Below are positions 1,312-2,790 of a stretch of DNA of 10,066 nucleotides, piece after piece. Below the pieces are notes generated by a model. That model was not told the DNA's origin. It made no database searches and saw only the letters and a list, made by a program, of their open reading frames with translations. The stretch is from a virus. Taxonomy: Duplodnaviria; Heunggongvirae; Uroviricota; Caudoviricetes. The position numbers and the translations under genes were made by a program. Position 1 is the first letter of the stretch. Each line of letters begins with the position of its first letter. The DNA lies in IMG/VR virus record IMGVR_UViG_2663763227_000008, positions 1 to 10,066 of that record. The stretch is one strand, 5' to 3'.

Positions 1312-1313
1312 TG

Positions 1314-1343
1314 AAAGGTCGCACAGAAGTGCGGCCTTTTTTT
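1314..1343 (+). terminator. Rho-independent terminator immediately after cI
   Basis: AAAGGTCGCAC-agaa-GTGCGGCCTTT forms an 11-bp stem with one G.U pair and a 4-nt loop, running into a 7-T tract (1337-1343). It begins 3 nt after the cI stop. Confidence 0.8.
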
Positions 1344-1439
1344 ATGATTAATATATATAAATATCAATAACATAAGCATGTTATATAGCAATTAACATAC
1401 CTATCTACAAACGAGGTATACATCAGCATTTGTTCAGTC

Positions 1440-1534
1440 AACCTGCAAAACATCACATCTCCTGCGCATTTTTAATTCACCTGCTAATTTTACATTCTCC
1501 TGCACTTTTTTATTGCTCCTGCATCATTGTGGTG
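1440..1534 (+). repeat. Five contiguous 19-bp direct repeats with invariant CCTGC core (iteron/operator-like array) upstream of the ParA-like gene
   Basis: CCTGC occurs at 1442, 1461, 1480, 1499 and 1518, exactly 19 bp apart. The units are aaCCTGCaaaacatcacat, ctCCTGCgcatttttaatt, caCCTGCtaattttacatt, ctCCTGCacttttttattg and ctCCTGCatcattgtggtg. All share a C(T/A)CCTGC head and a T-rich tail. Confidence 0.85.
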
Positions 1535-1560
1535 CTTTAATATTCAAAATTTAAAGGAGG
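1533..1560 (+). promoter_or_regulatory. Candidate extended -10 promoter (TGcTTTAAT, 1533-1541) and Shine-Dalgarno (AGGAGG, 1555-1560) of the ParA-like gene
   Basis: TG at 1533-1534 sits one base upstream of TTTAAT (1536-1541), and TAATAT is also present at 1538-1543. No well-spaced -35 is seen (TTGCTC at 1513-1518 is 17-19 bp away, depending on which -10 is used). AGGAGG lies 7 nt before the ATG at 1568. The promoter call is weak. Confidence 0.3.
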
Positions 1561-1567
1561 AATTCAT

Positions 1568-2611
1568 ATGAGCACTGTAGTTGAGTCAGTAATGGCACGC
1601 TATGCACAAGTTGTTGAGGAAGGTTACGTCGTAGATGGCGGGCCAAAATTCAAAAGTTATGCAGTTTCCAATCTGCGCGGTGGTGTTGGTAAGTCCACGA
1701 TGACATTCAACCTCGCCTATGAGCTGTCACGACGTAACTCCGTATTAGTGGCTGACTTATGCCCGCAATGTAATTTAACGGAGACACTATTGCGTGGTGA
1801 AAAACCGGTTGTAACAATAGCTAATGCACTGACACCAAAAATGCTGGGTCCAGCTTTTGGTGAGCAGCCAGAAGATATTTCATATCGAGTAAGTAATTTC
1901 TGCCCAGATTTTAAAGGTGGTAAGGCATGTTATGCGATTCCAGGTGATCCTGAGCTATTCGCTTTCCCATCAAGCATGTATCAACAACTACAAGTAGCGC
2001 TATCTCGCGGAGAACCAAAAGCAGTATCAACACTATTAAATTCTCTTCGCGCAATAATGAACGATGAAGCGAAAGACAAAAAATGCGAAATTTTATTGAT
2101 GGATACAAGCCCTTTCTATGCTGGAGGAACACACCTAGCATGGTGCGCGTCTGAGGCATTGATTATCCCTGTACGCGTAGATGAACACTCAATTGAGTCA
2201 CTTCATCTCACAATGGAAATGCTGGCAAATAAATCAAAAGATTTTGTATTATGGAATGAGCGTGCGGGTGGGCTTGGGGCTCCAAAAGTAGCAGCGATCG
2301 TAATGACAATGGCTGGTTCAAAAAGCCGTAAATCATCAACACCAGGTCGCGCATCTCAAATGTACATAGAGAGAGCTGTAAAAATCGCTGAAAAATACAG
2401 TCATCTCTTTGCCGATGAAGATGTTAGCAAAGCAATTGTGGTTACAGATGATTTTGTATCAAGCGGGCAAATTAGTGGGGCTGAAAGCATACCAATATCA
2501 CAGCTAAAAGTTGGTCGCTTCCATACAGTAAGTGAAGGGAAAAGGTTACAAGTTAACCAGTCGGTTACTCGATATCAAAGACAACTTAAGTATCTGGCAA
2601 GTATTCTTTAA
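1568..2611 (+). CDS. Orphan ParA/MinD/Soj-superfamily P-loop ATPase (347 aa) occupying the rexA-rexB position
   Basis: Deviant Walker A NLRGGVGKST (aa 35-44). A ParA-type A' motif VLVADLCPQCN (typical vLviDlDPQgN). Walker B EILLMDTSPF with D179, then ALIIPVRVDEHSIESL (typical IIPvqpe..sl.gl). Strong SD. No ParB-like ORF follows before the terminator at 2617. Confidence 0.8.
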   Translation: MSTVVESVMARYAQVVEEGYVVDGGPKFKSYAVSNLRGGVGKSTMTFNLAYELSRRNSVLVADLCPQCNLTETLLRGEKPVVTIANALTPKMLGPAFGEQPEDISYRVSNFCPDFKGGKACYAIPGDPELFAFPSSMYQQLQVALSRGEPKAVSTLLNSLRAIMNDEAKDKKCEILLMDTSPFYAGGTHLAWCASEALIIPVRVDEHSIESLHLTMEMLANKSKDFVLWNERAGGLGAPKVAAIVMTMAGSKSRKSSTPGRASQMYIERAVKIAEKYSHLFADEDVSKAIVVTDDFVSSGQISGAESIPISQLKVGRFHTVSEGKRLQVNQSVTRYQRQLKYLASIL

Positions 2612-2616
2612 GCAAG

Positions 2617-2644
2617 AACCCGGCCTCAGCGCCGGGTTTTCTTT
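2617..2644 (+). terminator. Rho-independent terminator after the ParA-like gene (lambda t_imm-like)
   Basis: AACCCGGC-ctcagc-GCCGGGTT has an 8-bp stem followed by TTTTCTTT. From memory, this sequence and the DNA from about 2660 to OL match the lambda sequence downstream of rexB used in pL vectors. Confidence 0.8.
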
Positions 2645-2790
2645 GCCTAACCCCCCCAAAAAAACACATAACCAATTGTATTTATTTGAAAATTAATAGA
2701 TACAACTCACTAAACATAGCAATTCAGATCTCTCACCTACCAAACAATGCACCCCTGCAAAAAATAAATTCATATAAAAAACATACAGAT

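What the first reader, a model, noticed from the sequence alone, without database searches (positions are those of the whole stretch)
1312..2660. The rexA-rexB slot of a lambda-immunity prophage is replaced by an orphan ParA-like ATPase cassette
The flanks (cI/OR/cro on one side; t_imm-like terminator, OL and pL on the other) are recognisably lambda. The roughly 1.3 kb between the cI stop and the terminator at 2617 is not rexA/rexB. It holds a terminator, an AT-rich control region with a phased repeat array, and one 347-aa ParA/MinD-superfamily ATPase. The cI-to-N interval is a known lysogen-expressed exclusion slot (lambda RexAB; 933W Stk kinase). A precisely swapped cassette there is therefore a plausible new prophage-encoded exclusion/abortive-infection or host-manipulation function. 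A ParA-family protein without ParB in this slot has no described role that I know of. Alternatives are a degenerate partition module, a MinD-like modulator of host division or nucleoid, or an immunity regulator.
Basis: partly seen in the sequence, partly recalled or inferred. Interest (0 to 1): 0.85.

Follow-up and report, generated by a model that had tools for sequence, protein, structure and literature searches.

The report
Orphan ParA-like gene replaces lambda rexAB
In this lambda-immunity E. coli prophage the rexA-rexB exclusion genes are precisely replaced by a self-contained cassette, an atypical ParA-like ATPase gene preceded by its own CCTGCA repeat array; the same gene-plus-array unit rides on transposons and prophages across many bacterial phyla, and its function is still untested.

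Summary
Window 283-1312 is lambda cro/OR/cI (97.9%) and 2610-2883 is lambda t_imm/OL/pL (92.4%). The 1,297 bp between them replace rexA-rexB with a terminator, five CCTGC sites exactly 19 bp apart, a promoter whose -35 lies in the last repeat, and one 347-aa ParA/MinD-fold protein. No ParB is present.

New points:
- The protein belongs to a compact clade, 57-100% identical across at least eight phyla, with Arg replacing the ParA signature lysine and Cys replacing the catalytic Asp.
- 49 of 50 homologous loci carry a CCTGC array upstream, spaced 9, 19 or 28 bp.
- In 11 loci the unit sits in an IS1-related transposon with conserved inverted repeats and 8-bp target duplications.
- In prophages it recurs just downstream of S24 repressors, in at least three separate clades.
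- With the identical cI protein, other E. coli carry a BstA-family gene in the slot.
- None of 72,556 plasmids has a close homologue, so partition is unlikely.

Best reading: an autonomous, probably self-repressed accessory cassette ("moron") encoding a DNA-array-binding ATP switch, most plausibly acting against other mobile elements. The role is inferred from position only. It is a new variant of a known kind.

The parts
297..497 (-). cro (66 aa), left flank of the immunity region
   Evidence: ORF. Lies within the 97.9% match to lambda 38255-37226. Annotated Cro in identical loci.
598..1311 (+). lambda-type cI repressor (237 aa). Its stop codon is the left junction of the swap.
   Evidence: Pfam Peptidase_S24 (100.3 bits) and HTH_3. 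The lambda match ends at 1312.
1313..1347 (+). Intrinsic terminator (12-bp stem, T7 run), the first element of the cassette. It should insulate the ParA-like gene from pRM/pRE transcripts.
   Evidence: -19.3 kcal/mol, z = -6.4. Similar hairpins precede the array in Pseudescherichia L008 and Rahnella L026.
1348..1435 (.). AT-rich spacer without an ORF or an RNA-family match
   Evidence: Sequence. Rfam gives only sub-threshold hits.
1436..1530 (+). Array of five direct 19-bp units, each with a CCTGC core (1442, 1461, 1480, 1499, 1518). Proposed operator for the ParA-like protein.
   Evidence: 0.00 expected by chance. Equivalent arrays occur in 49 of 50 homologous loci, with 4-12 sites against 0.3-1.0 expected and spacings of 19, 9 and 28 bp.
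1513..1541 (+). Predicted sigma-70 promoter: -35 TTGCTC (1513-1518) overlapping the last repeat, a 17-bp spacer, and an extended -10 TGcTTTAAT (1533-1541)
   Evidence: Read from the sequence. The simple scanner did not report it. The same design, TTGCxC-CTGCA...TGn-TAnnnT, is found in 30 of 91 homologous loci from several phyla. Inferred, not tested.
1554..1560 (+). Shine-Dalgarno sequence AAGGAGG, 7 nt before the ATG
   Evidence: Sequence.
1568..2611 (+). 347-aa atypical ParA/MinD-fold ATPase: Walker A LRGGVGKST (R37 in place of the signature Lys, K42), switch-I DLCPQCN (C65 in place of the catalytic Asp), Walker B D179
   Evidence: (AF2 mean pLDDT 87.9). Protein WP_021568301.1 is annotated 'ParA family protein'.
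2612..2648 (+). t_imm-type intrinsic terminator shared with lambda; right junction of the swap
   Evidence: -19.2 kcal/mol, z = -3.8. Matches lambda 35832 onward. Shared by RexB, HicA-toxin, BstA and other cargo alleles.
2790..2860 (+). OL operators and pL promoter (TTGACA-17-GATACT at 2825-2853)
3102..3485 (+). N antiterminator (127 aa), right flank
   Evidence: Pfam N_peptide, 55 bits.

Best explanation
Window 1313-2648 is an autonomous accessory cassette ('moron'): an upstream terminator, a promoter embedded in a CCTGCA repeat array, one gene, and the slot's terminator.

The gene encodes a ParA/MinD-fold ATP-binding protein. Its altered active site (Arg for the signature Lys, Cys for the water-activating Asp) suggests a slow-hydrolysing ATP switch rather than a partition motor.

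Proposed mechanism, in steps:
1. The protein itself binds the phased CCTGCA array (inferred).
2. The last repeat overlaps the -35 element, so binding represses the gene's own promoter and holds the protein at a set level in the lysogen, independently of cI transcription (inferred).
3. In trans, the ATP-bound protein acts on other DNA in the cell. It serves the carrier element in conflicts with incoming phages or plasmids, that is exclusion or abortive infection, as RexAB and BstA do in the same slot (inferred from position only).
4. The array may also mark 'self' DNA, by analogy with the BstA-aba element (speculative).

Shown here: the anatomy, the family signature, the strict gene-array coupling, the mobility, the recurrence in moron positions, and purifying selection.
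For: - Precise replacement of rexAB between the cI stop and t_imm.
- The cassette has its own terminator, promoter-like site and ribosome-binding site.
- CCTGC arrays occur in 49 of 50 homologous loci from many phyla. The ParA-like protein is the only protein common to those loci. More distant relatives (32% identity) lack the array.
- The conserved promoter design has -35 and spacer inside the repeats.
- R37, C65, K42 and D179 are invariant in 120 homologues. C65 aligns with Soj D44, which is Ala in the 2bek entry.
- dN is 0.07-0.19 with dS saturated; dN/dS is 0.08 in the one measurable pair.
- The same slot holds a BstA-family gene behind the identical cI protein, RexAB in lambda and HicA toxins.
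- In 87 de-duplicated loci, the nearest upstream gene of 150 aa or more is an S24 repressor in 19. Others lie next to antiterminator Q or integrase.
- Repressor-linked copies form at least three clades.
- It is rare and patchy: 5 of 5,426 complete E. coli genomes.
Against: - No functional data exist. Binding of the protein to the array, autorepression, expression in lysogens and any anti-phage effect are all untested.
- No effector domain (nuclease, membrane or toxin) is visible.
- PADLOC gives no real hit.
- About 60% identity between phyla is unusually high for a defence gene. It fits a core function of a selfish element better.
- The minimal transposon (L036, 2,389 bp) is filled by the transposase, this gene and one small ORF. 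That hints at an element-level role.
- ParA dimers are two-fold symmetric, whereas the sites are direct repeats.
Confidence: 0.4

Rival explanations
1. Transposon-derived control or accessory factor. The gene's primary role is within the IS1-related transposon, for example repressing the divergent transposase promoter through the array, or choosing or activating target DNA as MuB, TnsC and IstB do. Prophage copies would then be domesticated regulators or lingering cargo.
For: - Eleven elements are bounded by the conserved IR GGTAGTGGGTCAGTTTGAA with perfect 8-bp target duplications. All contain transposase, array and ParA-like gene, and the smallest is only 2,389 bp.
- The array lies between the divergent transposase and ParA-like genes.
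- IS-linked copies are scattered through the tree.
- The transposase is IS1-related.
Against: - Prophage copies lack the transposase and IRs, yet keep the array and an intact gene under purifying selection.
- They occupy repressor-adjacent slots in at least three clades. An activity independent of the transposase must therefore exist.
- Known transposition ATPases are AAA+ proteins, not ParA/MinD (established knowledge).
Confidence: 0.2
2. Anti-plasmid partition interference. The orphan ParA disturbs the ParA/ParB systems of incoming plasmids or plasmid-prophages, as reported for ParI of a Pseudomonas putida genomic island against IncP-7 plasmids.
For: - There is a precedent for an orphan ParA on an integrated element that interferes with plasmid partition: Miyakoshi et al. 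2012, cited in the reference list of PMC9044938.
- The fold is ParA.
- The predicted hydrolysis defect could act as a dominant negative (inference).
Against: - Identity to characterised ParAs is only 14-21% and is confined to the P-loop and Walker B regions. Mixed dimers or ParB hijacking therefore seem unlikely.
- This does not explain the conserved cognate array.
Confidence: 0.12
3. Host- or prophage-directed positioning or regulatory ATPase (MinD-, McdA- or FleN-like). It would modulate the nucleoid, cell division, induction or a host regulator, rather than fight other elements.
For: - The best structural matches are the positioning ATPases McdA and Soj, and the list includes the antiactivator FleN.
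- The Gifsy-1 STM14_3218-3220 region changes a host regulon (RtcR) on SOS induction.
Against: - The gene occurs with different repressor N-domains, N proteins and replication modules and in transposons in unrelated phyla. A specific host or phage partner is therefore unlikely.
- No conserved neighbour was found downstream.
Confidence: 0.1
4. A genuine or decaying plasmid-type partition module (ParA plus centromere) left in the prophage.
For: - An upstream direct-repeat array followed by a Walker-type ATPase resembles type Ib par loci (established knowledge).
- The transposon versions add a small basic ORF.
Against: - None of 72,556 plasmids carries a homologue at 57% identity or more. The closest plasmid relative (32%, Aeromonas) sits beside a separate canonical parA plus a small gene next to repB.
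- The prophages are integrated and have no ParB.
- Purifying selection is strong.
- The signature Lys and catalytic Asp are both replaced.
Confidence: 0.03

Closest known systems
Lambda RexA/RexB (exclusion genes in the cI-to-N slot)
   Same: Exactly the same slot, bounded by the cI stop codon and t_imm. It is cargo carried in the lysogenic state.
   Different: There is no sequence or fold relationship. RexAB is co-transcribed with cI, whereas this cassette starts with a terminator and has its own promoter-like site. It is one gene rather than two, with no membrane protein.
BstA with its aba DNA element (Salmonella phage BTP1; Owen et al. 2021, PMC8585504)
   Same: It is a single gene downstream of cI. 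A BstA-family gene fills this very slot behind the identical cI protein in E. coli E272. A short cis DNA element sits at the 5' end of the gene.
   Different: The protein family is unrelated. BstA's abortive-infection activity and aba's self-immunity role are experimentally shown, whereas here both roles are conjecture. The array here is a 4-12-copy phased repeat overlapping a promoter.
Gifsy-1 (S. Typhimurium 14028s) STM14_3218-3220 (Kurasz et al. 2023, PMC9879122)
   Same: An orphan ParA-like ATPase with no ParB, directly downstream of the prophage repressor. Its transcript level is unchanged by mitomycin C, like the repressor's, and its distribution is strain-variable.
   Different: STM14_3218 is 840 bp (about 279 aa) and is followed by two further genes. 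Its phenotype, RtcR activation after SOS, maps to the three-gene region. Homology to the 347-aa protein could not be tested because the sequence is not in the available collections.
Type Ib partition systems (ParF/ParG/parH of TP228; delta/omega of pSM19035) and Soj/McdA
   Different: There is no centromere-binding partner in the prophage. The family is not found on plasmids. Signature Lys is replaced by Arg and catalytic Asp by Cys. The protein has about 100 extra residues.
ParI, orphan ParA of a Pseudomonas putida KT2440 genomic island (Miyakoshi et al. 2012, cited in PMC9044938)
   Same: An orphan ParA on an integrated mobile element that acts against another mobile element.
   Different: The relationship to this clade is unknown. 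ParI works through similarity to the plasmid's own ParA, and no cognate array is reported (my knowledge of that paper is limited to its title).
ParA-like genes downstream of CI in Pseudomonas phage phi297 and Klebsiella phage ST11-VIM1phi8.2
   Same: Same position and orientation relative to CI, about 350 aa, and the shared DxCPQxN motif with Cys.
   Different: Only 24-26% identical. They keep the canonical KGG signature lysine and have no CCTGC array.

Membership tests
ParA/MinD (SIMIBI) P-loop ATPase superfamily | Fold: seven-stranded P-loop core of Soj/MinD type | tested here: met
   [not shown]
ParA/MinD (SIMIBI) P-loop ATPase superfamily | Walker A GK[ST] and Walker B hhhhD | tested here: met
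   G41-K42-S43-T44 and L177-M178-D179 are invariant or nearly so in 120 homologues.
ParA/MinD deviant Walker A subgroup | Signature lysine (xKGGxxK[ST]) that reaches the partner's ATP | tested here: not met
   LRGGVGK: Arg37 is invariant in 120 of 120 homologues. It aligns to the Lys of Soj KGGVGK.
ParA/Soj partition ATPases | Catalytic Asp in switch I (Soj DLDPQ, D44) | tested here: not met
   DLCPQ: Cys65 is invariant. It aligns with D44 of 1wcv and with the Ala of the 2bek entry.
Type I plasmid/chromosome partition system | Cognate ParB or centromere-binding protein gene next to parA | tested here: not met
   None is present in the window or in the annotated prophage. No conserved downstream neighbour was found in 94 loci.
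Type I plasmid/chromosome partition system | Resides on a low-copy replicon that needs segregation | tested here: not met
   The prophages are integrated. None of 72,556 plasmids has a homologue at 57% identity or more.
Type I plasmid/chromosome partition system | Centromere-like repeat array | tested here: inconclusive
   A phased array is present, but it overlaps the promoter and no partition role is shown.
Lambda RexAB | Sequence homology to RexA or RexB | tested here: not met
   Window 1313-2609 has no match to the lambda rex region.
Catalogued anti-phage defence systems (PADLOC-DB v2.0.0) | Significant match to a defence-protein model | tested here: not met
   The only hit is PDC-M28B at 16.1 bits over the P-loop. 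Newer catalogues were not available.
Phage 'moron' (autonomous accessory cassette) | Inserted between genes that are adjacent or differently filled in related phages, with its own promoter and terminator | tested here: met
   Junctions. Alternative cargo. Terminators. The promoter is predicted only.
Phage 'moron' (autonomous accessory cassette) | Expressed from the repressed prophage | not testable with these tools
   This needs RNA-seq or 5'-RACE of a lysogen.
IS1-related transposon carrying the ParA-like unit | Terminal IR GGTAGTGGGTCAGTTTGAA, 8-bp target duplication, DDE transposase | tested here: not met
   No IR (up to 4 mismatches) was found in the window or the E. coli loci, and no transposase is present. 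The features are met in 11 relatives from other phyla.

The most novel reading that the evidence does not exclude
The CCTGCA-array/ParA-like unit is a new kind of portable two-part module: a single ParA-class ATP switch that reads its own DNA array. One reading is a previously unrecognised single-gene anti-phage or anti-plasmid system with a DNA-encoded self-marker, analogous to BstA-aba. The other is the first ParA/MinD-class ATPase working with a DDE transposase, which temperate phages have repeatedly co-opted into the repressor-adjacent defence slot.
Probability: 0.22. Interest if true: 0.85.

Novelty: new variant of a known kind. Interest (0 to 1): 0.62.

Why it matters
If the protein binds its own array and protects its carrier, it would add a mechanistically new, effector-less member to the set of prophage exclusion genes that occupy the classical RexAB slot. 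It could be compared directly with BstA and RexAB on near-isogenic backbones.

The same unit is the conserved content of an IS1-related transposon family spread over many phyla. That would link transposon biology, ParA-type ATP switches and phage immunity regions.

The natural Lys-to-Arg and Asp-to-Cys active-site variants are also a ready-made probe of how ParA dimers couple ATP to DNA binding.

If instead it proves inert in all assays, the finding is still a well-defined example of modular cargo exchange at the cI/t_imm junctions.

Tried and rejected
Searches that led nowhere:
- PADLOC gave only a 16-bit P-loop hit.
- Rfam on 1200-3200 gave only sub-threshold matches.
- BFVD fold search was uninformative. 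The afdb50 library was unavailable.
- Ten literature searches found no paper on this protein, its accession or an IS-borne ParA. They yielded only the analogues in Gifsy-1, BstA and ParI.

Ideas tested and rejected or left open:
- ParB or another partner: none in the window or prophage, and no recurrent downstream neighbour.
- Small basic ORF of the transposon versions: absent from the window and from prophage loci except L117. It has no Pfam or NCBIfam match.
- First IR search by exact k-mers and local alignment: found only L036. A motif search with mismatches then recovered 11 elements.
- Covariation between protein and repeat motif: not testable. The core is CCTGC throughout the clade at 57% identity or more, and the 32% relatives have no array.
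- dN/dS: dS was saturated in 10 of 11 pairs, so only the qualitative conclusion dN << dS can be drawn.
- CxxC metal site (C65-P-Q-C68): considered but not supported as defining. C68 is only 71% conserved.
- The simple promoter scanner did not report a + strand promoter upstream of the gene. The promoter given here rests on manual reading plus cross-locus conservation.
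Full report
**Observation.** The + strand of the window runs in the direction of lambda leftward transcription.
- blastn against lambda aligns window 283-1312 with lambda 38255-37226 at 97.9%. This covers cro, OR and cI up to its stop codon.
- Window 2610-2883 aligns with lambda 35832-35559 at 92.4%. 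This covers the last bases of rexB, t_imm, OL and pL. N follows at 3102-3485 (Pfam N_peptide).
- Nothing in 1313-2609 matches lambda. So 1,297 bp replace the cI-rexA spacer, rexA and rexB.

The replacement holds, in order:
- an intrinsic terminator at 1313-1340;
- an AT-rich spacer;
- five CCTGC cores exactly 19 bp apart at 1442-1522, a pattern with 0.00 expected by chance;
- a Shine-Dalgarno sequence;
- a 347-aa ORF at 1568-2611.

The t_imm hairpin folds as expected.

**The protein.**
- Pfam AAA_31 and CbiA, PHROG 164 and weak NCBIfam ParA hits place it in the ParA/MinD superfamily.
- Sequence identity to these is only 14-21%. About 240 of the 347 residues align to the ParA core.
- Sequence matches to solved ParAs are limited to the P-loop and Walker B regions.
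- In 120 homologues the Walker A reads LRGGVGK[ST]. Arg replaces the signature lysine in all 120.
- The switch-I motif reads DLCPQxN. Cys, also invariant, sits where Soj has the catalytic Asp44, which is Ala in PDB entry 2bek.
- K42 and D179 are invariant. ATP binding is therefore expected.
- From established knowledge of Soj, MinD and McdA Asp-to-Ala mutants, hydrolysis is expected to be slow. This step is an inference.

**A compact, mobile family.**
- A profile search of 1.84 billion cluster representatives finds only 58 clusters at E <= 1e-30 and 3,179 at E <= 0.001. The clade is small and well separated from ordinary ParAs.
- Its members are nevertheless 57-100% identical across Pseudomonadota, Actinomycetota (including Mycobacterium), Acidobacteriota, Verrucomicrobiota, Planctomycetota, Bacteroidota, Chlorobiota and Myxococcota.
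- Nonsynonymous divergence is low (dN 0.07-0.19) while synonymous sites are saturated. This means strong purifying selection.
- The cassette is rare in E. coli. It is in 5 of 5,426 complete genomes and in none of 50,697 phage records at the DNA level. The identical protein is, however, indexed on several hundred assembly contigs.

**The array travels with the gene.**
- In 49 of 50 non-redundant loci, the 315 nt upstream of the gene carry 4-12 CCTGC sites on the coding strand, against 0.3-1.0 expected.
- Neighbour spacings are almost only 19 bp (129 cases), 9 bp (72) and 28 bp (19). The consensus site is aCCTGCA.
- In 30 of 91 loci a sigma-70-like promoter has its -35 element (TTGCxC) fused to a repeat. 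Usually a second repeat lies in the spacer and a TGn-extended -10 follows.
- The window has the variant TTGCTC (1513-1518), 17 bp, TGcTTTAAT (1533-1541).
- Upstream and downstream neighbours differ between loci. The only protein common to all arrays is the ParA-like protein itself. I therefore infer that it binds the array and represses its own promoter.
- More distant relatives (32% identity: Aeromonas plasmids, L118, L125) keep the Arg and the Cys but have no array.

**Genomic contexts.** Two contexts recur.

*(a) Prophage accessory-gene positions.*
- Among 87 de-duplicated loci, the nearest upstream gene of 150 aa or more is a Peptidase_S24 repressor in 19. It is antiterminator Q in 4 and an integrase in 2.
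- All ten E. coli places inspected have the gene between cI and N, with varied N and replication modules.
- Pseudomonas chlororaphis has it downstream of an S24 repressor too.
- In Franconibacter, Cupriavidus and the sequenced Ralstonia phage RsoM1USA it lies near the integrase or attP.
- Repressor-linked copies form at least three separate clades in a neighbour-joining tree.
- Even 24-26%-identical ParA-likes of Pseudomonas phage phi297 and a Klebsiella phage sit directly downstream of CI.

*(b) An IS1-related transposon.*
- In 16-17 loci a divergent DDE transposase of about 300 aa lies 80-220 bp upstream. It matches Pfam DDE_Tnp_IS1 above its cutoff and NCBIfam IS1 below its cutoff.
- A conserved 19-bp terminal inverted repeat, GGTAGTGGGTCAGTTTGAA, bounds 11 elements of 2.39-4.32 kb. 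Each is flanked by a perfect 8-bp target duplication.
- These elements also carry a small basic ORF of unknown family.
- The window has no inverted repeat, no transposase and no small ORF.

**The slot.**
- E. coli E272 carries the identical cI protein (WP_021568302.1) and a 127-aa N, like the window's, but has a BstA-family gene in the slot.
- In both, similarity to the window stops at the cI stop codon and resumes at 2617.
- The t_imm segment is also shared by loci with RexB, HicA toxins and other cargo.
- BstA is an experimentally shown abortive-infection protein located downstream of cI. It has a DNA self-immunity element (aba) at the start of its gene. Its authors note that the cI-to-N interval is a mosaic hotspot (PMC8585504).
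- This positional evidence is the main support for an exclusion role. It is indirect.

**Partition is unlikely.**
- The prophages are integrated and encode no ParB.
- None of 72,556 plasmids has a homologue above 32% identity.
- The Aeromonas plasmids that carry the 32% relative also carry a separate canonical parA plus a small gene beside repB.

**Closest described case.**
- In Gifsy-1 of S. Typhimurium 14028s, an orphan ParA-like gene (STM14_3218, 840 bp) and two small genes lie downstream of the repressor gfoR.
- Their transcript levels are unchanged by mitomycin C.
- That module is shorter and has three genes. I could not test its homology to the window protein.
- ParI of a P. putida genomic island is a precedent for an orphan ParA that interferes with plasmid partition (cited in PMC9044938).

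**Conclusion.**
It is a portable unit of repeat array plus atypical ParA-like gene, found on transposons and repeatedly placed in prophage accessory slots, here as a precise allele of rexAB.
- The most likely working model is a self-repressed, DNA-array-binding ATP switch that serves its carrier in conflicts with other mobile elements (confidence about 0.4).
- A transposon-level role is the main rival (about 0.2).
- Function, expression and DNA binding are all untested.

Noticed in passing
L015 4230-7209; L017 4958-7947; L019 3148-7469; L021 4674-7921; L023 218-3946; L025 4515-7284; L035 4970-8167; L036 25-2413; L037 4812-7916; L039 3382-7468; L043 2262-5702: A transposon family of 2.4-4.3 kb in at least five phyla. 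It has the terminal inverted repeat GGTAGTGGGTCAGTTTGAA, perfect 8-bp target duplications and an IS1-related DDE transposase divergent from the ParA-like gene. The CCTGCA array lies between the two genes. I found no description of it in the held literature.
   Followed up: partly
L036 2108-2368 (-); L017 7031-7285 (-); L039 7034-7432 (-), and 13 other loci: A small basic ORF convergent with the ParA-like gene inside the transposons. It has a conserved C-terminal motif GGxKGGKARAxxLTPEQRxEIAxKAAxxRW and no Pfam or NCBIfam match. It is absent from the window.
   Followed up: partly
[not shown]
   Followed up: partly
L058 3974-4744 compared with window 598-1311: Some cassette-bearing prophages have a hybrid repressor. 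It is 99% identical to the window from position 901 onward (the S24 domain). Upstream of that point the DNA does not match the window, and the partner cro is an HTH_3 protein instead of Cro PF09048. This suggests a recombination point inside cI.
   Followed up: no
L120 3968-5020 (phage phi297); L121 3953-5029 (Klebsiella phage ST11-VIM1phi8.2): Distant ParA-likes (24-26% identity, about 350 aa) again lie directly downstream of CI. They keep the canonical KGG signature lysine but share the DxCPQxN motif with Cys, and they have no CCTGC array.
   Followed up: partly
L124 2435-3472 and 4260-4904: Aeromonas plasmids carry a 32% relative with the Arg and Cys variants but no array. A separate canonical 214-aa ParA and a small gene lie next to repB on the same plasmid.
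   Followed up: partly
L004, about 7840-7870 (upstream of the array): A (CCT)n run, CCTCCTCCTCCTCCTCCTCCTCCT, lies immediately before the CCTGCA array in the Pseudomonas chlororaphis prophage. It may be a slippage-prone tract.
   Followed up: no
L001 22058-22126 compared with L064 6487-6870: RefSeq annotates only a 69-bp 'regulator, incomplete' pseudogene where another gene call on the same genome gives an intact 127-aa N_peptide protein. This is probably an annotation artefact.
   Followed up: no
window 8231-9025; 3546-3788; 4404-5039; 5446-5742: The rest of the window is a P22/lambdoid early-left region. It contains a dATP/dGTP pyrophosphohydrolase + DUF551 fusion, DUF7446, an ERF recombinase, anti-RecBCD Abc2 and Ead/Ea22-like proteins.
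   Followed up: partly
L119 6087-6857: In Ralstonia phage RsoM1USA the 62% homologue (gp55) lies just after attP and is followed by a DUF3800 protein at the genome end, a typical accessory-gene position.
   Followed up: no
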